Shown here: positions 1 to 9,230 of the stretch, piece by piece
How the letters are laid out: every line of letters begins with the position of its first letter
Position numbering within the stretch: the first letter of the stretch is position 1
Notes under the pieces: model-generated
Database searches by the model: none
Told to the model about the DNA's origin: nothing
The model's input: only the letters and a program-made list of their open reading frames with translations
Translations under genes and position numbers: made by a program
DNA from: a virus
Taxonomy: Duplodnaviria; Heunggongvirae; Uroviricota; Caudoviricetes
Direction: 5' to 3' (one strand)
Length of the DNA stretch: 9,230 nt
IMG/VR virus record: IMGVR_UViG_2740892218_000012

Positions 1-113
1 TTTCAGTTCCCACAGCTCATTCAGTACCTCTTCACGACTGATATCAAGTCGCGCAGCAAGTTCTATGGACGTGGCCTTTCCCATCGCTTTCAGTGCGTCA
101 AAAACAGTCTCCA
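1..113 (-). CDS. Hypothetical phage protein, N-terminal fragment (gene continues beyond left edge)
   Basis: Minus-strand ATG at 113..111 preceded by GGGAGG (plus 123..128) with 9-nt spacer; reads [38 protein letters not shown] to the window edge. Starts 24 nt after the stop of the DnaC-like gene, so likely co-transcribed. Confidence 0.4.
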
Positions 114-136
114 TTAAAATTTCCTCCCGGTAAAAA

Positions 137-883
137 TCACTTCGTGATTCCTGGCTGGACGACATTCGGGCGCCAGCTTTCCCAGTTAAAATTAACCCAT
201 CGACCGCCGTTCATGGTCATGCGATCCATAACCCTCTCACCGAGCAACGTTTTCATGGCCTCATAGTTCAGGTTTGTCAGCATCCCCATACTGCGCATCG
301 ATGCTGTCCGGCGATCAACAATCTGATGCAGCACCACCTGCTCGTTTTTCGTCTCACGCTGAATGCCAATTTCATCAAGAACCAGCAGATCCACTTCGCA
401 CAGTTCCCGCAAAAATTTTTCGCCTGACTGCCCGTCGTCATAGCTGGCGTGCAGGGCACTCATAACATCAGCCACAGTAACCACTATCACTGTCTGGCCG
501 TCTTTCAGCAGGCGATTCCCGATAGCCGCCGCCAGATGGTTTTTTCCGGTACCAGGTTTTCCGCTGAACGCGAAATTTGTGCATCCGGTCATCAGTTCAT
601 CAGCGATGGATTTCGCCTGACTTAACGCGTATCGCTGGCCGTCGTTCTGTACATGGTAATTCGCAAACGAGCATTTACGGTGCAACGGCTGGATGCCTGA
701 GCGATTCAGAATTTTTTCCACCCGCAACTGGCGATTCAGGCGGTTGATCTCCTCGCTACGCTTCTGGCCTTCAGCAAGTTGCCACTCGCGCCACTCCGCT
801 ACCGTTCTGAATGGGGCGGTTACATGTGGCGGGGTCAGTCTGCGGATACGTTCCAGAACGCCGCCTGTCGCAATATTTTTCAT
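137..883 (-). CDS. ydaV: DnaC-like AAA+ helicase loader (phage replication protein P analogue; YdaV-like)
   Basis: 248-aa ORF with Walker [16 protein letters not shown] and Walker B LLVLDEIG typical of the DnaC/IstB ATPase family. Sits immediately downstream of the initiator-like gene, as in lambdoid O-P modules. Size matches Rac YdaV (about 246 aa, from memory). Confidence 0.85.
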
Positions 884-889
884 GGTTCG

Positions 890-1402
890 TTACCCCCTGA
901 ACCCCGGAGGAATTTCGGTGTCCGGTTCAGAAATATGATTCACACAACGCTGTACAGGTGAACGCCCCAGGCGGATGACCAGTTCGTCCCATTTTTCGCG
1001 GAGCTTTGACGGGCTCATGATGTTTTTTACCCAGAATGGATCCCGCTGTACCCGCCCAAACATTTCGCAAATTTGTCTGTGAGTTCTGCCATCCAGCATC
1101 CGCATTGTGCGCACGTCATTGGCCCACGCGGTCCAGTTTGGTTCTTTCGGTCGCGTGATCTCGCCATCATCGCTGGCCGCCTGCTCGTAAAGACTCACGA
1201 TTCGTCCCCAGATCCACTGTGCGCACGCCAAATCTTCCTGACTTCCCCACTGGCGTTTTTTCGCACTGAACACAACCACGTCAGGGTGTCGGGTTAAAAA
1301 ATCCTGTTCAGCCGTCTGCGGGTCCGGTTGCGAAGCGTCCGGACAAGAAGATCTTTTATCTGACGGATCAGATTTTAATACTGACGGATCGGGGTCAATC
1401 AT
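890..1402 (-). CDS. Replication initiator (O/YdaU-like), C-terminal segment; this frame is open upstream to 1549 and appears frameshifted relative to the N-terminal segment 1495..1725
   Basis: 170-aa ORF from the first ATG. In the same frame, codons upstream of 1402 stay open to 1549 and encode a periodic peptide (NDPLTVDPSNIDPSTVDPSNFDGSTVD) templated by the iterons. Stop is 7 nt before the DnaC-like start. Confidence 0.6.
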   Translation of the reverse strand: MIDPDPSVLKSDPSDKRSSCPDASQPDPQTAEQDFLTRHPDVVVFSAKKRQWGSQEDLACAQWIWGRIVSLYEQAASDDGEITRPKEPNWTAWANDVRTMRMLDGRTHRQICEMFGRVQRDPFWVKNIMSPSKLREKWDELVIRLGRSPVQRCVNHISEPDTEIPPGFRG

Positions 1403-1434
1403 CGCCCCCCTAACCGACCGTTTTTTATCAACGG

Positions 1435-1506
1435 TTGATCCATCAAAATTTGACGGGTCAACCGTTGAGGGGTCAATATTTGACGGGTCAACCGTTAACG
1501 GGTCAT
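1435..1506. repeat. Iteron array, putative phage replication origin: five 12-bp near-palindromes TTGAYNNRTCAA at exact 15-bp phasing
   Basis: Units at 1435 (ttgatccatcaa), 1450 (ttgacgggtcaa), 1465 (ttgaggggtcaa), 1480 (ttgacgggtcaa) and 1495 (ttaacgggtcat, degenerate). More degenerate copies (tgacggatc) at 1361 and 1382. The array lies inside the initiator coding region, as lambda ori lies inside gene O. Confidence 0.6.
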
Positions 1507-1725
1507 TTTTTGCCGGGCTAATTTTTCTTTTCGGTTTATATGAGCCGCTTTAACCGTTGATTCACTCTTTGCCCCAATCTGACGACGAATGGTCTCTACT
1601 GCAGGCCATGACACACCTTCATCATTGCTGTAGTCTGCAAGACGAGCCATCACTGCCACCCTGGATAAGATCATGCCGGTGAAGGCACACCCTTCCCAGA
1701 CAAGACCATGAAGCTTGCTGCTCAT
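1495..1725 (-). CDS. Replication initiator (O/YdaU-like), N-terminal helix-turn-helix segment, ending at TAA just after an A6 run
   Basis: 76-aa ORF with a winged-helix-like segment (LSRVAVMARLADYSNDEGVSWPAVETIRRQIG). SD-like GGGG 6 nt upstream of the ATG at 1725. C-terminal codons are CAA AAA ATG ACC CGT TAA on the minus strand; one extra A would fuse it to the 890..1402 frame. Confidence 0.55.
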   Translation of the reverse strand: MSSKLHGLVWEGCAFTGMILSRVAVMARLADYSNDEGVSWPAVETIRRQIGAKSESTVKAAHINRKEKLARQKMTR

Positions 1726-1748
1726 AAAAAACCCCGAACACCGTGCTT

Positions 1749-2174
1749 TTAGTGCATCACCACGGCATTTCCTGCCGGGCCACCGCGATTAATCTGGTTG
1801 AAACCAGCAATTGCCACCGCAATAAAATCATCTGCATCCCTCACCAGCCGCTCCCGCGTCTCCAGCAGCTCCCGAAAATAGGCTGAACTGTGACTGCGCA
1901 TTCGGGCCACCAGCAGAGGCGGCATTGCCTTTTCGATCGCAGGTAACAACGCCTGAATTTTTTCAACCGCATCAGGAGTGTCTTTCTCTACCCAGCGGAA
2001 AATTTTCTGGGTATTGCGAGCCAGGGCTTCCGGATGGCTGTTGTCGTACAGTTCAGGAAACGTCATACCCAGTTCGAAATACGCTTTGGTAATTTTCGCA
2101 GTCGGTACTTTTTCTCCATCCGGATGCGCCCAGGCATTCATCGCCATGCGGATGTGTTCATGCTTGATTTTCAT
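1749..2174 (-). CDS. ydaT: YdaT-like protein (reported as a toxin and as a CII-like regulator in Rac-type prophages)
   Basis: 141-aa ORF directly downstream of the Cro-like gene, with AAGAGG SD 8 nt upstream of the ATG. Size and position match Rac ydaT (140 aa). Recognised from memory of the family, not by search. Confidence 0.65.
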   Translation of the reverse strand: MKIKHEHIRMAMNAWAHPDGEKVPTAKITKAYFELGMTFPELYDNSHPEALARNTQKIFRWVEKDTPDAVEKIQALLPAIEKAMPPLLVARMRSHSSAYFRELLETRERLVRDADDFIAVAIAGFNQINRGGPAGNAVVMH

Positions 2175-2196
2175 GAATCATTTGCCTCTTGATGTT

Positions 2197-2493
2197 TCAG
2201 GTATGATCAAATGAGGATTTGTTACTGTCATTTAGTTGCTTCACTGACATATTCTGCGAATAACATGCCGAACGTCGTAAATATGACCAGTCAATATCAG
2301 GACGAAGTTCTTCGCACAGAACGTCACCTCTTGTTGCACGTTCAATTGCTGGACATCTCTCTGCAGGCAATTGACGTACCCCTTTGATCCATTGATTTAC
2401 GCTTGGAGGTGATACACCTAAAAGCCTAGCCATTGCTGATTGCCCACCGACAACAGCACAAGCTCGCTTGAATGAATAGTTCTCTTTTTTCAT
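2197..2493 (-). CDS. ydaS: Cro-type HTH regulator (YdaS-like)
   Basis: 98-aa ORF divergent from the repressor gene. HTH segment QSAMARLLGVSPPSVNQWIKG. GGAG SD 8 nt upstream of the ATG. Size matches Rac YdaS (98 aa). Confidence 0.7.
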   Translation of the reverse strand: MKKENYSFKRACAVVGGQSAMARLLGVSPPSVNQWIKGVRQLPAERCPAIERATRGDVLCEELRPDIDWSYLRRSACYSQNMSVKQLNDSNKSSFDHT

Positions 2494-2519
2494 CGAATGA
2501 ACTCCAAAAACACACAGAG

Positions 2520-2589
2520 ATATTAGGCGACGCCTAATACTAATGTCAATAGGCTATGCCTAATGCAGTAAGAATAGGGATTGCCTAAT
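2520..2589. promoter_or_regulatory. OR-like operator cluster (three 17-bp palindromes ATTAGGC-N3-GCCTAAT) overlapping a minus-strand promoter for the cro-like gene
   Basis: O1 2522..2538 attaggcgacgcctaat (perfect; extends to a 19-bp perfect palindrome 2521..2539). O2 2548..2564 aataggctatgcctaat. O3 2573..2589 aatagggattgcctaat. Starts are 26 and 25 bp apart. Minus-strand promoter: -35 TTGACA (plus 2544..2549), 18-bp spacer, -10 TAATAT (plus 2520..2525), overlapping O1. Confidence 0.6.
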
Positions 2590-2616
2590 ACAATGAGCAT
2601 AGGAGAATATTAAGCA

Positions 2617-3093
2617 ATGCTTAGTGGTAAAGACTTAGGCCGAGCAATAGAGCAGGCCATTAACAAAAAAATCGCATCGGGATCCGTCAAATCAAAGGCG
2701 GAGGTCGCTCGCCACTTCAAAGTCCAACCACCATCAATCTATGACTGGATTAAGAAAGGCTCCATAAGTAAAGATAAACTTCCAGAATTATGGCGTTTCT
2801 TTTCTGATGTTGTTGGTCCAGAGCATTGGGGGCTTAACGAATACCCCATACCAACCCCCACCAACTCAGATACAAAAAGTGAACTTTTAGACATAAACAA
2901 CCTTTATCAGGCAGCCTCTGATGAAATAAGAGCGATTGTAGCTTTCCTGTTATCAGGAAATGCTACAGAACCAGACTGGGTTGACCACGATGTTCGCGCC
3001 TACATAGCAGCGATGGAAATGAAAGTTGGTAAGTATCTGAAAGTTCTAGAATCTGAACGGAAAAGCCAGAACATCACAAAAACTGGAACTTAA
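2617..3093 (+). CDS. racR: Prophage repressor (RacR-like, CI analogue)
   Basis: 158-aa ORF between the two operator clusters, divergent from the cro-like gene. HTH segment SKAEVARHFKVQPPSIYDWIKKG. AGGAG SD 11 nt upstream of the ATG. Size equals Rac RacR (158 aa). Confidence 0.75.
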   Translation: MLSGKDLGRAIEQAINKKIASGSVKSKAEVARHFKVQPPSIYDWIKKGSISKDKLPELWRFFSDVVGPEHWGLNEYPIPTPTNSDTKSELLDINNLYQAASDEIRAIVAFLLSGNATEPDWVDHDVRAYIAAMEMKVGKYLKVLESERKSQNITKTGT

Positions 3094-3188
3094 ACTTATA
3101 TGGTCTGACGGAAAACTCCTGGATTCCGTTATTTAATCCCTCCCATCACTTTTTTCATTCGCATCACCTATTGGGTTACGCCCAGAAC

Positions 3189-3232
3189 ATTAGGCAAAGC
3201 CTATTGACAATCAATTAGGCATTACCTATAGT
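3189..3232 (+). promoter_or_regulatory. pL-like sigma70 promoter (TTGACA-17-TATAGT) overlapped by two operator palindromes (OL-like)
   Basis: -35 TTGACA at 3204..3209, exact 17-bp spacer, -10 TATAGT at 3227..3232. Operators: 3189..3205 attaggcaaagcctatt and 3214..3230 attaggcattacctata, same half-site as the OR sites, 25-bp phasing, covering the -35 and -10. Confidence 0.6.
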
Positions 3233-3409
3233 TCCAGCATGCCACCCACCCCGCCCCACAGCACGCAGGGCAATACTTCGAGTTACCAGGCAGTGGTCAG
3301 GGGTTAAGTAGCCAGCCCGAGGCGTAAGAACATGACGGCAGGGTTCAACTTTAACTATGCAGCAGGTTTTTGTTCCGCTACCCCGGCGTTAAGGGGAAAT
3401 GAGGTCAGC

Positions 3410-3562
3410 ATGGATACTATCGATCTTGGCAACAACGAATCTCTGGTGTACGGCGTGTTTCCCAACCAGGACGGCACGTTCACCGCGATGACGTATACCA
3501 AAAGTAAAACGTTTAAAACCGAAGCTGGCGCGCATCGCTGGTTAGCAAGAAACTCTGACTGA
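3410..3562 (+). CDS. ydaF: Small phage protein (YdaF-like, DUF1391-type), 50 aa; in-frame alternative start at 3332
   Basis: GAGG at 3401..3404, 5 nt upstream of the ATG at 3410; reads MDTIDLGNNESLVYGVFPNQDGTFTAMTYTKSKTFKTEAGAHRWLARNSD. First gene after the pL-like promoter. The track ORF 3332..3562 is the same frame extended to an upstream ATG with a weaker RBS. Confidence 0.5.
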   Translation: MDTIDLGNNESLVYGVFPNQDGTFTAMTYTKSKTFKTEAGAHRWLARNSD

Positions 3563-3573
3563 TGAGGTTGACG

Positions 3574-4212
3574 ATGGAATTTAAAGATTTACCTACTTCA
3601 ATCCAGGAGATTGCAGCACACACACTTCGTCATCGTCTGAACGAACTTGCATTGGAATCGGTAACGAAAAAAGACACTGATAATATGGCTCGTAATGTGC
3701 GCGATGCGTTTACCGGATTGTATTTCTGTGCGTCTGTAAATAAACACGACTCAGAGAGTGTGGCAAATAAAATTGCAGAAACGACAGCGCAAAACATCAA
3801 TACGAAACCAACGGAAGAAGAAATTGATCAGTTTGCTCATGATGCTGGTTTAAAAAACAAGAAAGAAAAATCGCCATATGCGGGGAACATGTTTGTTTAT
3901 GACAATCTCATCAGAATTCGTGGCGAAATTCCGGCGGAATACCTGGCAAGAGTCCATCAGGCATTGCTTAAAAATCTGGAAACAGAATTATTTGATGGCA
4001 ACACTAACGGTTTCTTCATGGTATCAGGCCTTGAGAAAGACTGGGATGCAGAAAAACGCTGGAATGTTGCTACATGGTTATTCAGTAACAGAGCCGCTGC
4101 TCTGGAAGCTTCGGCATGTATTTGCGGCCTGTTCTTAACAGACCACAAATATAATCTGGATGTGTACAGTTATATTTACGCTGAACACGGTCCGCTCTGG
4201 ATTGACTGGTAA
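3574..4212 (+). CDS. Hypothetical protein, 212 aa, no recognisable motif (accessory cargo)
   Basis: GAGG at 3564..3567, 6 nt upstream of the ATG at 3574 (the track ORF starts at the in-frame ATG at 3562, overlapping the upstream stop as TGATG). Long uninterrupted ORF with ordinary amino-acid composition, visibly AT-richer than neighbours. I could not assign it to any family from sequence alone. Confidence 0.6.
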   Translation: MEFKDLPTSIQEIAAHTLRHRLNELALESVTKKDTDNMARNVRDAFTGLYFCASVNKHDSESVANKIAETTAQNINTKPTEEEIDQFAHDAGLKNKKEKSPYAGNMFVYDNLIRIRGEIPAEYLARVHQALLKNLETELFDGNTNGFFMVSGLEKDWDAEKRWNVATWLFSNRAAALEASACICGLFLTDHKYNLDVYSYIYAEHGPLWIDW

Positions 4213-4758: not shown

Positions 4759-4816
4759 TTTCTGGTGGCGTTTGGCGGTATCAGTTTTACTCCGTGACTG
4801 CTCTGCCGCCCTTTTT
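4759..4816 (+). ncRNA. dicF: DicF-like small RNA with intrinsic terminator (cell-division-inhibiting sRNA family of lambdoid prophages)
   Basis: Sequence tttctggtggcgtttggcggtatcagttttactccgtgactgctctgccgccc followed by TTTTT closely matches my recollection of E. coli DicF (UUUCUGGUGACGUUUGGCGG...CUGCCGCCC). It lies in an ORF-free stretch of the pL-like operon, upstream of a kil-type gene. Confidence 0.6.
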
Positions 4817-5335: not shown

Positions 5336-7807
5336 ATGAGTAAAGTCTTTATTTGCGCCGCCATTCCGGACGAACAGGCAATAAAGGAAGAAGGTGCAAT
5401 TGCTGTAGCCACTGCCATTGAAGCCGGTGACGAACGCCGCGCCCGTGCCAAATTTACCTGGCAATTCCTGGAGCAATATCCGGCTGCTCAGGACTGCGCT
5501 TATAAATTTCTTGTCTGCGAGGATAAACCCGGCATGCCCCGCCCTGCTATCGACTCCTGGGATACCGAATATATGCAGGAAAACCGCTGGGATGAGGAAT
5601 CCGCTTCCTTTATTCCGGTCGAACCAGAATCCGATCCGATGAACGTCAATTTTGACAAGCTGTCCCTTGAAGTACAGAACGCGGTCCTGGTTAAGTTCGG
5701 TACATGTGAAAACATCACCGTTGATATGGTGATTAGTGCTCAGGAATTACTGCAGGAGGACATGGCAACATTCGACGGGCATATCGTTGAGGCATTGATG
5801 AAAATGCCTGAAGTTAACGTCATGTATTCAGAGCTTAAGCTGCTCGCCATCGGGTGGGTTAAACATAAATGTAAGCCGGGTGCAAAATGGCCTGAGATCC
5901 AGACAGAATTACGCACCTGGAAAAAACGTCGCGAAGCCGAACGCAAAGAAACCGGGAAATACACGTCTGTTGTTGATCTTGCCCGCGCCAGAGTCAACCG
6001 GCAGAACACTGAAAATTCAGTAGCGAAAATCCCCCCAGCCACTGCCACCATTCGTCGCGAATACAAGCAGACATGGAAAACACTGGATGATGAACTGGCC
6101 TACGCTCTGTGGCCTGGTGACATTGATACCGGAAACATTGACGGCAGCATCCATCGCTGGGCAAAAAATGAAGTTATCGACAACGACCGCGAAGACTGGA
6201 AGCGTATCTCGGCATCAATGCGCAAACAGCCTGATGCCCTTCGCTACGACCGCCAGACTATTTTTGGCCTTGTCCGTGAACGTCCGATCGACATTCACAA
6301 AGCCCCTGTGGCACTGAACAAATACATTACTGAATACCTGACTACAAAGGGCGTGTTTGAAGATGAAGGAACAAATCAGAGCGCAACTGATACTCTCTCG
6401 TCGCCAGTACCAGAAACTGATGCAGTGGAAACGGCAATTCCGGACAACGAAAAAACCGAATGCAAAGTGGAAGTCGAACCATCTGTAGAGCGTGAAGGGC
6501 CGTTCTACTTCCTCTTCACCGACAAGGATGGCGAAAAATATGGTCGCGCAAACAAACTTTCTGGTCTGAATAAGGCGCTGACTGCAGGGGCTACTGAAAT
6601 CACGAAAGAAGAATATTTTGCCCGCAAAAACGGTACATACTCAGGTTCACAACAAAATACTGGTGCATCTGACACGACCGCACAACCAGAGCCGGTAAAA
6701 GTTACCGCTGAAGAAGTAAACAAAATTATGCAGGCAGCCAATATCAGCCAGCCTGACGCCGATAAGTTGCTTGCTGCCTCTCGCGGAGAATTTGTTGCAG
6801 GGATTAGCGACCCGAATGATCCGAAATGGGTGAAGGGGATTGAAACCCGCGACTCTGTAAACCAGAACCAGCAAGAATCGGAACAGAACGACCAGAAAAC
6901 GGAACAAAACAGCCCAAATGCGCAACAAAACGAGCCAGAAACGAAACAGGTTGAACCAGTAGCGCAACAGGAGCCGGAAAAAGCCTGCACCGCCTGCGGT
7001 CAGACCGGCGGCGGTAGCTGCCCTGATTGTGGTGCGGTGATGGGCGACGCAACATACCAGGAAATATTCGATGAAGAGAATCAGCCTGAAGTTCAGGAAA
7101 ATGATCCGGAGGAAATGGAAGGCACTGCGCATCAGCACAAGGAGAACACTGGCGGCAATCAGCATCATGCCAGCGATAGTGAAACTGGCGAGGCGTCAGA
7201 TCCCTTAATTAAGGCGAACGGTCATCATAATCTCACATCCACCAGCAGAGCGGGGATTCATCTGATGATCGACCTTGAAACCATGGGAAAAAATCCTGAT
7301 GCCCCGATTATCTCAATAGGTGCAATATTTTTCGATCCGCAAACCGGAGATATGGGACCGGAATTTAGTAAGACTGTCGATCTGGAAACTGCTGGCGGAG
7401 TCATTGATCGGGACACCATTAAATGGTGGCTTAAGCAATCACGCGAAGCGCAATCTGCCATTATGACCGATGAAATCCCGTTAGATGATGCACTGTTACA
7501 ATTGCGGGAATTTATCGACGAAAACTCCGGTGAATTTTTTGTTCAGGTCTGGGGAAATGGAGCAAACTTCGACAACACGATTTTGCGCCGTTCATACGAA
7601 CGGCAGGGGATCCCCTGCCCGTGGCGTTACTACAACGATCGCGATATACGCACAATCGTTGAGCTGGGGAAAGCCATAGACTTCGATGCCAGAACTGCTA
7701 TCCCATTCGAAGGTGAGCGCCATAATGCACTTGATGACGCTCGTTACCAGGCAAAATACGTTTCAGCTATCTGGCAAAAACTGATCCCGAGTCAGGCTGA
7801 TTTTTAA
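5336..7807 (+). CDS. Large prophage exonuclease, 823 aa: N-terminal region of unknown function, acidic Q/E/N-rich linker, CxxC-x7-CxxC zinc-ribbon motif, C-terminal DnaQ-like DEDDh 3'-5' exonuclease domain
   Basis: C-terminal motifs MIDLETMG (Exo I, DxE), WGNGANFDNTIL (Exo II) and HNALDDARY (Exo III, H-x4-D) are diagnostic of the DEDDh fold. CTACGQTGGGSCPDCG is encoded at about 6986..7030. Occupies the exo/recE slot of the pL operon; such genes are often auto-annotated exodeoxyribonuclease VIII. Confidence 0.85.
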   Translation: MSKVFICAAIPDEQAIKEEGAIAVATAIEAGDERRARAKFTWQFLEQYPAAQDCAYKFLVCEDKPGMPRPAIDSWDTEYMQENRWDEESASFIPVEPESDPMNVNFDKLSLEVQNAVLVKFGTCENITVDMVISAQELLQEDMATFDGHIVEALMKMPEVNVMYSELKLLAIGWVKHKCKPGAKWPEIQTELRTWKKRREAERKETGKYTSVVDLARARVNRQNTENSVAKIPPATATIRREYKQTWKTLDDELAYALWPGDIDTGNIDGSIHRWAKNEVIDNDREDWKRISASMRKQPDALRYDRQTIFGLVRERPIDIHKAPVALNKYITEYLTTKGVFEDEGTNQSATDTLSSPVPETDAVETAIPDNEKTECKVEVEPSVEREGPFYFLFTDKDGEKYGRANKLSGLNKALTAGATEITKEEYFARKNGTYSGSQQNTGASDTTAQPEPVKVTAEEVNKIMQAANISQPDADKLLAASRGEFVAGISDPNDPKWVKGIETRDSVNQNQQESEQNDQKTEQNSPNAQQNEPETKQVEPVAQQEPEKACTACGQTGGGSCPDCGAVMGDATYQEIFDEENQPEVQENDPEEMEGTAHQHKENTGGNQHHASDSETGEASDPLIKANGHHNLTSTSRAGIHLMIDLETMGKNPDAPIISIGAIFFDPQTGDMGPEFSKTVDLETAGGVIDRDTIKWWLKQSREAQSAIMTDEIPLDDALLQLREFIDENSGEFFVQVWGNGANFDNTILRRSYERQGIPCPWRYYNDRDIRTIVELGKAIDFDARTAIPFEGERHNALDDARYQAKYVSAIWQKLIPSQADF

Positions 7808-7859: not shown

Positions 7860-8069
7860 ATGGCTATGAGCAGCTTATTTTTAACCGAAGATGAATTGCT
7901 AACATTAACGGGCTGCAAATATGCAAGCCACCAGCGAAAATGGTTAATGGAAAACGGGCTTCCGTTCTATACCAATCGTAGTGGCAAACCGATTGTCAGC
8001 CGGGATCTATTTACCTGCAATAAAACTTTACCACCACGCGAGGTAGAGCCGAATTTTGGTGCAATCTGA
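7860..8069 (+). CDS. Putative excisionase / recombination directionality factor
   Basis: 69-aa ORF immediately upstream of int, with its stop overlapping the int start (ATGA at 8066..8069), the classic xis-int arrangement. Assignment is by position and size only. Confidence 0.5.
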   Translation: MAMSSLFLTEDELLTLTGCKYASHQRKWLMENGLPFYTNRSGKPIVSRDLFTCNKTLPPREVEPNFGAI

Positions 8070-9094
8070 TGGGAAGACGAAGGAAAAATCCTGAACACGA
8101 AAAATTACCTCCAAATGTATACCCAAATAAATATAGTTATGTATGGAAACCAACATCCAGAGAATCTGTCACACTAACCGCCATCAAGGATGGTTTAGCT
8201 GCTTTATGGAAAAAGTATGAGGAAACTGTAAATAATCGCGATCGCGCAATGACATTCGGTCGCTTGTGGGAAAAATTCCTCGCCAGCGCCTATTACAGTG
8301 ACCTCAGTCCAAGAACACAAAAAGATTATCTGCAACATCAAAAAAAGTTGCTTGCCGTATTCGGTAAGGTGCCGGCAGATTCCATAAAACCAGAACACAT
8401 CCGTCGATACATGGACAAGAGAGGGGAACAGAGTAAAACGCAAGCCAACCATGAAAAAAGCAGTATGTCCCGCGTTTACAGTTGGGGGTATGAGCGAGGG
8501 TACGTGAAGGGTAACCCATGTGCAGGTGTAAGTAAATTCAAGGCCAAAAACCGCGAACGATATGTAACCGACAAAGAATACCAGGCAGTATTAAGTGTTG
8601 CACCTCTTCCTGTTTTTATCGCAATGGAAATTGCCTATCTGTGTGCAGCGAGGGTTTCCGATGTGTTATCACTGAAATGGGAGCAGATTGGAAACGACGG
8701 GATCTTTATCCAGCAAGGGAAAACAGGGAAAAAACAGATAAAAGCATGGAGTCCACGATTACAGGCGGCGATCGAAAAAGCAAAACAGTTACCAACATCT
8801 GCCTATGTAATCAGCAATCAATATGGCAACCGATATATGTACAAAGGTTTTAACGAAATGTGGGTAGAAGCAAGAAATCACGCAGGCAAAATTTCAGGTA
8901 TTTTAACCGACTTCACCTTTCATGATCTGAAGGCGAAAGGAATTTCAGACTATGAAGGAAGCAGCCGGGATAAGCAACTTTTCTCTGGTCACAAAACCGA
9001 AGGGCAAGTGCTAATCTATGACAGAAAGGTTAAAGTTTCACCAACACTTGATGTCCCGTTACCTGATAATATTCCAAGAAAATATTCCAAGTAA
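8069..9094 (+). CDS. Lambda-family tyrosine integrase, 341 aa
   Basis: N-terminus MGRRRKNPEHEKLPPNVY resembles the lambda Int arm-binding domain (MGRRRSHERRDLPPNLY). Catalytic-region motifs present: AARVSDV (Arg I), QGKTGKK (Lys), FHDLKAKG (His, with Lys where Arg II is expected), SGHKTEG (His), LIYDRK (Tyr). Adjacent to a tRNA 3' end. Confidence 0.9.
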   Translation: MGRRRKNPEHEKLPPNVYPNKYSYVWKPTSRESVTLTAIKDGLAALWKKYEETVNNRDRAMTFGRLWEKFLASAYYSDLSPRTQKDYLQHQKKLLAVFGKVPADSIKPEHIRRYMDKRGEQSKTQANHEKSSMSRVYSWGYERGYVKGNPCAGVSKFKAKNRERYVTDKEYQAVLSVAPLPVFIAMEIAYLCAARVSDVLSLKWEQIGNDGIFIQQGKTGKKQIKAWSPRLQAAIEKAKQLPTSAYVISNQYGNRYMYKGFNEMWVEARNHAGKISGILTDFTFHDLKAKGISDYEGSSRDKQLFSGHKTEGQVLIYDRKVKVSPTLDVPLPDNIPRKYSK

Positions 9095-9146: not shown

Positions 9147-9230
9147 TGGCGGAGAGAGGGGGATTTGAACCCCCGGTGGAGTTGCCCCCACTCCGGTTTT
9201 CGAGACCGGTCCGTTCAGCCGCTCCGGCAT
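9147..9230 (-). tRNA. serU: tRNA-Ser (anticodon CGA), 3' 84 nt including the encoded CCA; the 5' 6 nt lie beyond the window edge
   Basis: Reverse complement of 9147..9230 reads ATGCCGGAGCGGCTGAACGGACCGGTCTCGAAAACCGGAGTGGGGGCAACTCCACCGGGGGTTCAAATCCCCCTCTCTCCGCCA. Anticodon stem CCGGT/ACCGG with loop CTCGAAA (anticodon CGA), long variable arm GTGGGG-GCAA-CTCCAC, T-arm GGGGG-TTCAAAT-CCCCC, acceptor 3' strand plus CCA. Confidence 0.85.

What the first reader, a model, noticed from the sequence alone, without database searches (positions are those of the whole stretch)
2520..3232. Lambda-like bistable switch: five 17-bp operators with a shared half-site, and repressor and Cro-like proteins with near-identical recognition segments
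Three operators (2522..2538, 2548..2564, 2573..2589) lie between the divergent cro-like and repressor genes, and two more (3189..3205, 3214..3230) overlap a consensus TTGACA-17-TATAGT promoter downstream of the repressor gene. All share the half-site ATTAGGC, with about 25-bp phasing. The perfect palindrome overlaps the -10 of the cro-side promoter. Both regulators carry the same HTH motif PPS(I/V)xxWIK(K)G (RacR-like VQPPSIYDWIKKG, YdaS-like VSPPSVNQWIKG), suggesting they compete for the same operators as CI and Cro do. The repressor gene has only a weak -35 ahead of a TACAAT -10 (2589..2594) next to O3, which would fit autoactivation from an adjacent operator as at lambda pRM.
Basis: partly seen in the sequence, partly recalled or inferred. 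Interest (0 to 1): 0.45.

Follow-up and report, generated by a model that had tools for sequence, protein, structure and literature searches.

The report
Rac prophage RacR/YdaS immunity switch
This is the repressor/anti-repressor control region of a Rac-type prophage, already mapped experimentally in E. coli K-12, so the finding is real but largely a rediscovery; the only part I could not find published is the second pair of repressor sites on the promoter downstream of the repressor gene.

Summary

The genes are orthologues of E. coli K-12 RacR (157/158 identical) and YdaS (95/98). Published K-12 work already covers most of this:
- DNase I footprints of RacR on this intergenic region
- the ATTAGGC monomer motif
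- four inverted repeats and a RacR octamer
- mapped transcription starts
- the lambda CI/Cro/CII analogy

So the core is already known.

Two reader details do not hold up. The mapped racR promoters use other -10 boxes, and TACAAT is TGTAAT in K-12. In K-12 reporter assays YdaS did not repress racR.

I did not find the downstream pair (3189-3205, 3214-3230) on the TTGACA-17-TATAGT promoter described for Rac in the searchable papers. Comparison of 64 loci from gamma- and betaproteobacteria shows the same operator/-35/operator/-10 unit in 37. It lies 60 to 2457 bp from the repressor stop codon, so it follows the promoter, not the gene.

Many relatives fuse the RacR DNA-binding domain to a LexA-type S24 peptidase. 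This is an old CI/Cro module.

The parts
2522..2538 (.). O1: perfect palindrome ATTAGGCGACGCCTAAT in the spacer and -10 of the ydaS promoter
   Evidence: In K-12 this region is protected at the lowest RacR concentration (PMC9638921). K-12 differs here by one base, its last (CCTAAT in the window, CCTAAC in K-12).
2548..2564 (.). O2: AATAGGCTATGCCTAAT, abutting and overlapping the -35 of the ydaS promoter
   Evidence: 1 mismatch. A 22-nt stretch of O2 plus the -35 is a 95% mirror copy of the downstream site plus its -35 (I3).
2573..2589 (.). O3: AATAGGGATTGCCTAAT, centred about -36 from the leaderless racR start and overlapping the -35 region of PracR3
   Evidence: 2 mismatches. The equivalent site at -42 to -44 is present in 43 of 64 related loci.
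2609..2625 (.).
   Evidence: Published as the operator overlapping the ATG. Present at -8 in 58 of 64 related loci.
2635..2640 (+). Extra TTAGGC half-site in racR codons (D-L-G), 26 bp after O4
   Evidence: Noted in PMC9638921. Also present in the Pseudomonas phage loci. It may be constrained by coding rather than by binding.
2520..2549 (-). PydaS (pR equivalent): TTGACA-18-TAATAT
   Evidence: The same hexamers have a mapped transcription start and a -10 knockout in K-12.
3189..3205 (.). OL, promoter-distal site: ATTAGGCAAAGCCTATT; its right end overlaps the -35
   Evidence: In K-12 and RM11911 it is conserved except for the central N3 base. The same architecture is found in 37 of 64 loci.
3214..3230 (.). 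OL, promoter-proximal site: ATTAGGCATTACCTATA in the spacer and -10
3204..3232 (+). pL-like promoter TTGACA-17-TATAGT, reading into the ydaG/ydaF-like ORF and on towards DicF, the exonuclease gene, xis and int
   Evidence: 11 of 12. Identical in K-12 upstream of ydaG. Genes downstream of this promoter are derepressed when RacR is depleted in K-12.
2617..3093 (+). racR: 158-aa repressor, helix 3 = residues 38-47 (PPSIYDWIKK)
   Evidence: 157/158 identical to K-12 RacR. No S24 peptidase domain. Published as an octamer.
2197..2493 (-). ydaS: 98-aa Cro-family protein
   Evidence: 95/98 identical to K-12 YdaS. Pfam YdaS_toxin and P22_Cro. PDB Cro hits.
1749..2174 (-). ydaT: CII-like activator, a divergent allele
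   Evidence: Pfam YdaT_toxin 8.6e-10. Only 33% identical to K-12 YdaT.
2164..2181 (-). YdaT-box ATGATT-N6-AATCAA over the ydaT start codon
   Evidence: Matches the site footprinted in K-12 (PMC11879457).
2371..2403 (+). PracR4-like reverse promoter inside ydaS (TTGACG ... TACGCT), the pRE equivalent
   Evidence: Hexamers located. Described for K-12.
2567..2608 (+). Published racR promoter -10 boxes: AGTAAG (2567-2572, PracR2) and GAGAAT (2603-2608, PracR3, leaderless)
   Evidence: Both hexamers are the same in K-12; the GAGAAT block is invariant in all three sequences aligned, while AGTAAG is ATAAAG in strain RM11911.
2589..2594 (+).
   Evidence: It is TGTAAT in K-12 and TGCAAT in RM11911.

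Best explanation
This is the immunity (lysis/lysogeny control) region of a Rac-type lambdoid prophage. RacR is a CI-like repressor with an N-terminal helix-turn-helix domain and a C-terminal oligomerisation domain that is not an S24 peptidase. Dimers of RacR bind 17-bp sites of the form (A/T)TTAGGC-N3-GCCTAA(A/T).

There are two clusters of sites. The right-hand cluster has four: O1 and O2 lie over the strong ydaS-ydaT promoter, O3 lies over the -35 region of the leaderless racR promoter, and O4 lies on the racR start. The left-hand cluster has two sites, laid over a near-consensus pL-type promoter exactly as O2 and O1 are laid over PydaS (centres at about -43 and -17).

RacR at O1/O2 and at the left-hand pair blocks RNA polymerase at both early promoters. 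This silences ydaS/ydaT and replication on one side, and the ydaF-like gene, DicF, the exonuclease gene, xis and int on the other. O3 and O4 tune racR itself.

YdaS is the Cro-family partner. It represses at least its own promoter, probably through the same sites. YdaT is the CII analogue, acting at its box over the ydaT start.

Shown by published experiment in K-12: RacR binding to the intergenic sites, the promoter positions, and the octamer. Shown here: orthology, statistical significance, and conservation of all six sites and of the left-hand promoter/operator unit. Inferred: RacR binding at the left-hand pair, YdaS using the same half-sites, and any looping between the two clusters.
For: Significance of the motifs and the promoters.

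Orthology: RacR 99% and YdaS 97% identical to K-12. Both operator regions are the same as in K-12 apart from one base in O1, two in O3 (AATAGGG in the window, GGTAGGG in K-12), the central N3 bases of O2 and of the distal left-hand site, and the stretches between operators.

Literature: RacR footprint, ATTAGGC motif, transcription starts, and repression of PydaS (PMC9638921). Three repeats and three EMSA complexes (PMC5700373). Four inverted repeats, an octamer, helix 3 at residues 38-47, and 100-fold rise of xisR/intR on RacR depletion (PMC11014345). Genes downstream of the left-hand promoter derepressed when racR is silenced. YdaS autorepression of 16-fold, and the YdaT-box (PMC11879457).

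Comparison: of 64 loci with a RacR-type DNA-binding domain, 58 have the site on the ATG, about 58 have one at -65 to -69, and 43 have one at -42 to -44. 37 have a downstream pair spaced 24-26 bp with the same operator/-35/operator/-10 layout, at 60 to 2457 bp from the repressor stop. Klebsiella phage KpF5 is one example: an inserted gene with its own terminator separates the repressor gene from the pair.

The relatives tested carry an S24 peptidase on the same DNA-binding domain.
Against: No experiment that I could find shows RacR or YdaS bound to the left-hand pair.

In K-12, YdaS did not affect racR expression, and on a plasmid it lowered its own promoter only to 80%. The Cro-like half of the switch is therefore weak or depends on context.

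27 of 64 loci showed no downstream pair, but only about 4 kb or less of flank was searched, and with the Rac consensus.

The proximal left-hand site has 3 mismatches.

RacR lacks the autocleavage domain, so the inducing signal is unknown.
Confidence: 0.85

Rival explanations
1. A repressor-only (monostable) silencing module. RacR alone reads the palindromes and keeps toxic early genes off. YdaS is a weak autoregulator that does not compete for the racR-side operators, so there is no lambda-style bistable switch in Rac-type elements.
For: In K-12 reporters YdaS and its DNA-binding mutant gave the same racR expression, and YdaS reduced PydaS only to 80%. RacR is essential because ydaS/ydaT are toxic. 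RacR has no S24 cleavage domain.
Against: Inactivating ydaS in its native context raises PydaST 16-fold. A divergent Cro-family gene is kept next to the repressor in almost all of the 64 loci, including those with cleavable S24 repressors. Cro helix-3 Pro-Thr/Ser is conserved together with the TTAGGC operators and differs in Cro relatives that have other operators. The related CP-933P module is bistable, with overlapping repressor and YdaS footprints.
Confidence: 0.3
2. The two downstream palindromes are a non-functional relic or a chance duplicate of the right-hand operator region, and the promoter there is not regulated by RacR.
For: No direct binding data were found. The proximal site has 3 mismatches.
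Against: A pair with this spacing and the same overlap with the -35 and -10 recurs in 37 of 64 loci from Escherichia to Pseudomonas, Achromobacter and Neisseria. Its distance from the repressor gene varies, and the surrounding sequence is unrelated. Only 0.31 sites per window are expected by chance. In K-12, genes downstream of this promoter rise 40- to 100-fold when RacR falls.
Confidence: 0.04
3. The palindromes are mainly the targets of another factor, either YdaT or a host regulator, rather than of RacR and YdaS.
For: YdaT protects about 100 bp that include PydaS in K-12. OxyR and the foreign C protein also act in this region.
Against: The defined YdaT site is TTGATT-N6-AATCAA, which is unrelated to ATTAGGC and is present separately at 2164-2181. 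The RacR footprint coincides with the repeats. The repeats co-occur with the RacR DNA-binding domain across 64 loci, and they are absent from the two loci whose repressor helix 3 has changed.
Confidence: 0.03

Closest known systems
E. coli K-12 Rac prophage racR-ydaS-ydaT immunity region (Krishnamurthi 2017, PMC5700373; Wisniewska 2022, PMC9638921; Gucwa 2023, PMC11014345; Wons 2025, PMC11879457)
   Same: RacR is 157/158 identical and YdaS 95/98. The four intergenic operators, the PydaS hexamers, the PracR2/3 -10 boxes, the YdaT-box and the downstream operator pair with its promoter are the same, apart from a few single-base differences inside O1, O3 and the N3 centres.
   Different: YdaT is only 33% identical. 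The replication genes, the exonuclease (3'-5' DEDD type instead of RecE) and the integration site (next to a tRNA instead of ttcA) differ. The window has TACAAT where K-12 has TGTAAT. The papers I could read describe only the intergenic sites, not the downstream pair.
CP-933P paaR2 / ydaS / ydaT switch of E. coli O157:H7 (Jurenas 2021, PMC8630535)
   Same: Divergent repressor and YdaS genes, a leaderless repressor mRNA, an octameric repressor, four repeats in the right-hand operator region, and a PL promoter with OL operators repressed by both proteins. Bistability has been shown.
   Different: A different repressor (PaaR2) and a different operator sequence (consensus GTTTAGTAA). It has three OL sites rather than two. 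A toxin-antitoxin pair is co-transcribed with the repressor.
Bacteriophage lambda CI / Cro / CII with OR, OL, PRM, PR, PL (established knowledge)
   Same: Gene order and orientation; 17-bp pseudo-palindromes spaced about 2.4 helical turns apart; operators over the divergent promoters; a second operator cluster on pL; a leaderless repressor mRNA; an oligomerising repressor; and a CII-like activator with a reverse promoter inside cro.
   Different: Four plus two operators instead of three plus three. One operator sits on the repressor start codon. RacR has no S24 autocleavage domain. Cro-type repression of the repressor promoter was not seen in K-12.
Phage 434 repressor and Cro (established knowledge)
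   Same: The repressor and Cro of one phage carry closely similar recognition helices and read the same operators. The Stx phage 06-3462 pair shows the same pattern: SQPAIQKM and SQPAVHKW.
   Different: No sequence relationship in the helix itself. Here the shared residues are Pro-Pro-Ser, at the positions that align with 434 repressor Gln28-Gln29-Ser30. That alignment is my own, made by eye.

Membership tests
Rac-type (RacR/YdaS) immunity module | RacR orthologue with helix 3 PPSIYDWIKK | tested here: met
   157/158 identical to K-12 RacR.
Rac-type (RacR/YdaS) immunity module | Divergent YdaS (Cro-family) gene followed by ydaT | tested here: met
   YdaS 95/98 identical; Pfam YdaS_toxin 1.3e-30; YdaT_toxin 8.6e-10, although YdaT is only 33% identical to K-12.
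Rac-type (RacR/YdaS) immunity module | ATTAGGC-N3-GCCTAAT inverted repeats in the intergenic region, including one over the racR ATG | tested here: met
   Four sites at -95, -69, -44 and -8, as in K-12.
Rac-type (RacR/YdaS) immunity module | RacR protein physically binds these sites | not testable with these tools
   Shown for the near-identical K-12 sequence by EMSA, ChIP-qPCR and DNase I footprinting.
Lambda-like CI/Cro bistable switch | Divergent repressor and cro genes with multiple operators overlapping both promoters | tested here: met
Lambda-like CI/Cro bistable switch | A second operator cluster on a pL-type promoter | tested here: met
   By sequence and by conservation in 37 of 64 loci. 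Binding itself was not tested.
Lambda-like CI/Cro bistable switch | Cro-type protein binds the same operators and shuts off the repressor promoter | not testable with these tools
   The shared helix-3 Pro-Ser/Thr tracks the TTAGGC operators. The literature reports no effect of YdaS on racR in K-12 but 16-fold autorepression. For Rac this remains inconclusive.
Lambda-like CI/Cro bistable switch | RecA-stimulated autocleavage domain (Peptidase S24) in the repressor | tested here: not met
   RacR has no S24 hit. Four tested relatives with the same DNA-binding domain do have it, at 1.8e-18 to 2.4e-14.
Lambda-like CI/Cro bistable switch | Two stable expression states | not testable with these tools
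   Shown only for CP-933P.
Cro family (P22 Cro / YdaS fold) | Sequence membership | tested here: met
   Pfam P22_Cro 35.5 bits against a cut-off of 30.2. PDB 3bd1 Cro at 5e-10, 5w8y at 4.9e-8.

The most novel reading that the evidence does not exclude
The pair of RacR sites on the downstream promoter is the direct, so far undescribed route by which RacR controls the left-hand early operon of Rac-type prophages (kilR, recET or the exonuclease gene, xis and int). The published RacR octamer may then not sit on the four intergenic sites alone. It could instead bridge the two operator clusters by looping out the racR gene, as the lambda CI octamer does. This OR(3-4) + OL(2) layout would be an ancient module shared by phages of gamma- and betaproteobacteria, whose repressors have exchanged C-terminal domains (S24 peptidase versus the RacR oligomerisation domain).
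Probability: 0.45. Interest if true: 0.3.

Novelty: already known. Interest (0 to 1): 0.13.

Why it matters
The module decides whether a Rac-type prophage stays silent or expresses toxic early genes (ydaS/ydaT, kil, DicF) and excises. In K-12 it makes racR essential.

The switch has already been mapped experimentally, so the finding itself adds little.

The useful increment is the conserved downstream operator pair. It gives a simple, testable explanation for why RacR depletion derepresses genes far from racR, including xis and int. It also suggests where to look for looping by the octamer.

The family-wide comparison also gives a natural set of repressor/Cro/operator triples for studying how recognition helices and operators stay matched while C-terminal domains are exchanged.

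Tried and rejected
- RNA structure in the conserved, C-rich leader downstream of the pL-like promoter (3239-3340): folding is no better than shuffles, z = +1.05. There is no evidence for a nut- or put-like element.
- Rfam over the whole window: only DicF and a tRNA fragment.
- Intrinsic terminators in 2300-3500: none.
- PDB sequence search with RacR: no hit, even at E = 1.
- The seventh palindrome-like hit, 3956-3972 (3 mismatches, inside an ORF): taken as chance. About 0.3 such hits are expected, and neither K-12 nor KpF5 has a counterpart.
- TACAAT as the racR promoter: rejected as the main promoter, because it is not conserved and is not among the mapped starts.
- CP-933P YdaS, as a Cro with a known different operator: blastn with ydaS against E. 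coli genomes found only racR-linked copies. I used other phage Cro relatives instead.
- My first script to find the Cro ORFs failed and was rewritten.
- Literature searches for a description of the Rac downstream operators or promoter found expression data only, with no binding sites. Older subscription-journal papers on sbcA and Rac are not in the library, so prior description cannot be excluded.

Full report
**1. What is in the sequence**

The window carries the early region of a lambdoid prophage.
- On the minus strand: a DnaC/IstB-like ATPase gene (137-883), ydaT (1749-2174) and ydaS (2197-2493).
- On the plus strand: racR (2617-3093), a DUF1391 (ydaF-like) ORF (3332-3562), an exonuclease gene (5336-7807) and an integrase gene (8069-9094).

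ATTAGGC occurs six times against 1.0 expected, and no shuffle out of 200 reaches six.

The 17-bp pattern ATTAGGC-N3-GCCTAAT, allowing up to 3 mismatches, occurs seven times against 0.31 expected. A sixth, 2609-2625, is centred exactly on the A of the racR ATG. The seventh, 3956-3972, lies inside an ORF and I take it as chance.

The promoter scan finds only two sigma-70-like sites in 2300-3500:
- TTGACA-18-TAATAT on the minus strand (2549-2520)
- TTGACA-17-TATAGT on the plus strand (3204-3232)

A 22-nt block made of O2 and the -35 of the first promoter is a 95% inverted copy of the distal downstream site and its -35 (I3). The two promoters therefore carry their two operators in the same geometry, with centres at about -43 and -17.

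**2. Identity**

The 1.2-kb core is 96.8% identical to regions annotated racR / ydaS / ydaT in over a thousand E. coli genomes.
- RacR is 157/158 identical to K-12 RacR.
- YdaS is 95/98 identical to K-12 YdaS.
- YdaT is only 33% identical to K-12 YdaT. There is therefore a mosaic joint just beyond ydaS.

Alignment with K-12 Rac shows all four intergenic sites, the promoter hexamers and the whole downstream operator/promoter block. The differences are few: the last base of O1, the first two bases of O3, the central N3 bases of O2 and of the distal downstream site, and the stretches between operators.

YdaS is a Cro-family protein. It matches Pfam YdaS_toxin and P22_Cro, and its best PDB matches are Cro structures.

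**3. What is already published**

- Krishnamurthi et al. 2017 described three GCCTAA/TTAGGC repeats in the 123-bp intergenic region, three RacR-DNA complexes in EMSA, and ChIP-qPCR enrichment. They also noted the likeness to lambda cI-cro.
- Wisniewska et al. 2022 mapped the single ydaS start behind TTGACA/TAATAT. They mapped three racR starts: the -10 of PracR2 is AGTAAG and that of PracR3 is GAGAAT, and PracR3 is leaderless and the strongest. They footprinted RacR, derived ATTAGGC as the monomer site, and named inverted-repeat operators, one of which overlaps the ATG.
- The same paper reports RacR autorepression of about 3-fold in vivo, activation of PracR3 in vitro, and no effect of YdaS on racR.
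- Later papers from that group report four inverted repeats, a RacR octamer, helix 3 at residues 38-47, and a 100-fold rise of xisR/intR when RacR is depleted.
- They also report 16-fold derepression of PydaST when ydaS is inactivated, the reverse promoter PracR4 inside ydaS, and the YdaT-box ATGATT-N6-AATCAA over the ydaT start.

All of these elements are present in the window: the YdaT-box at 2164-2181, and TTGACG at 2371 with TACGCT at 2398.

The related CP-933P module (PaaR2/YdaS/YdaT) has been shown to be bistable and to have a PL/OL.

**4.

- TACAAT (2589-2594) is not one of the mapped -10 boxes. It reads TGTAAT in K-12 and TGCAAT in strain RM11911.
- O3 would fill the spacer of a TACAAT promoter. 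That position represses rather than activates.
- With the published leaderless start, O3 is centred near -36 and O4 at +1.
- Cro-like repression of the repressor promoter has not been seen for Rac.
- RacR has no S24 peptidase domain, so lambda-style SOS induction by cleavage is not expected.

**5. The downstream pair**

I found no paper text that describes RacR sites or a promoter between racR and ydaG. The 2023 paper states that the RacR regulon, including ydaFG, is uncharacterised. The papers do report that ydaG, ydaF, kilR, racC, recET, xisR and intR are strongly derepressed when RacR falls.

I collected 60 genomic loci and 3 phage loci encoding the RacR-type N-terminal domain. They come from gamma- and betaproteobacteria. 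With the window, that makes 64 loci:

| Feature | Loci with it |
|---|---|
| Site on the start codon (-8) | 58 of 64 |
| Site at -65 to -69 | about 58 of 64 |
| Site at -42 to -44 | 43 of 64 |
| Fourth site at -95 | Escherichia type only (4 loci) |
| Downstream pair spaced 24-26 bp | 37 of 64 |

- In the downstream pair the first site runs into a TTGACA or TTTACA hexamer and the second covers the -10.
- The pair lies anywhere from 60 to 2457 bp beyond the repressor stop codon.
- In Klebsiella phage KpF5 the repressor is 56% identical. An inserted 1.1-kb gene with its own terminator separates the repressor gene from the pair.
- The pair therefore follows the promoter, not the repressor gene. 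This argues strongly that it is a working pL/OL unit.
- Its binding by RacR remains an inference.

**6. The shared recognition helix**

- Among 40 distinct repressor helices, positions 3 and 4 are Pro (37) and Ser (38).
- Among 35 distinct partner Cro helices, they are Pro (26) and Thr/Ser (34).
- Cro relatives from phages with other repressors and other operators have different residues there: PVL, QPA, PWA, PQA. The structural Val5 and Trp8 are kept.
- Two Pusillimonas loci have repressor helices PQA/AQA and Cro helices without the Pro. They have no TTAGGC sites, and their intergenic repeats look like ATTGCTT. The two loci are related, so this counts as one co-variation event.

This supports, but does not prove, that both proteins read the same half-site.

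Positions 6 and 7 differ consistently between the two proteins: Y/H/Q-D/G in the repressor and N/S-Q in Cro. That would allow different preferences among the sites.

**7. Origin of the module**

The four longer relatives tested carry Peptidase_S24 on the same DNA-binding domain. The RacR family is therefore a CI family in which the enterobacterial 158-aa form has a different C-terminal oligomerisation domain.

**8. Verdict**

The system is already known and has been dissected experimentally in K-12.

The modest new element is the conserved downstream operator pair, which could be tested in a few simple experiments.

Noticed in passing
window 2609-2625 and 2635-2640: A fourth operator lies exactly on the racR start codon. 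Its right half is formed by the codons for Met-Leu-Ser. The N-terminal 'ML' is invariant in almost all 64 relatives, so the operator and the first codons may constrain each other. A further TTAGGC half-site lies 26 bp downstream, in the D-L-G codons.
   Followed up: partly
window 4760-4811 (+): A full-length DicF antisense sRNA (Rfam RF00039, 76.4 bits against a threshold of 48), downstream of the pL-like promoter. It would be under RacR control if the left-hand operon is a single transcription unit.
   Followed up: no
window 9150-9230 (-): The 3' part of a tRNA gene, cut by the end of the window, just beyond the integrase gene (Rfam, 39.8 bits; ARAGORN finds nothing because it is truncated). 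It is the likely attachment site, and it differs from the ttcA site of K-12 Rac.
   Followed up: no
window 1749-2174 (-) versus 2197-2493 (-): A mosaic joint. RacR and YdaS are 97-99% identical to K-12, but the adjacent YdaT is only 33% identical. The YdaT-box over its start codon (2164-2181) nevertheless keeps the K-12 sequence.
   Followed up: partly
window 5336-7807 (+): An 823-aa 'exonuclease' occupies the position of RecE. Its C-terminus is an Rv2179c-like 3'-5' DEDD exonuclease domain (7.3e-67), not a RecE-type nuclease.
   Followed up: no
window 3332-3562 (+): The first ORF after the pL-like promoter reads as one 76-aa frame. It joins a ydaG-like N-terminus to the DUF1391 (ydaF-like) part. 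K-12 and RM11911 annotate shorter, separate genes here.
   Followed up: no
L033 and L036 (Pusillimonas), about 130 bp upstream of the repressor start: The repressor helix 3 has changed from PPS to PQA/AQA, the partner Cro lacks the Pro, the start codon is GTG, and there are no TTAGGC sites. The intergenic repeats look like ATTGCTT. This appears to be a change of specificity within the family.
   Followed up: partly
L011 (contig labelled Candidatus Nanosynbacter MAG): A 5.2-kb contig with a RacR N-terminal domain 100% identical to the window's and an identical operator layout is binned as a Saccharibacteria MAG. This is almost certainly a mis-binned Escherichia prophage fragment.
   Followed up: no
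window 2300-3100, in relation to the literature: A published Rho-dependent terminator (trac/timm) lies inside racR in K-12 and keeps read-through from reaching kil (PMC4150792). Together with the pL-like promoter, the left-hand operon would then be guarded twice. I did not examine the window for rut features.
   Followed up: no
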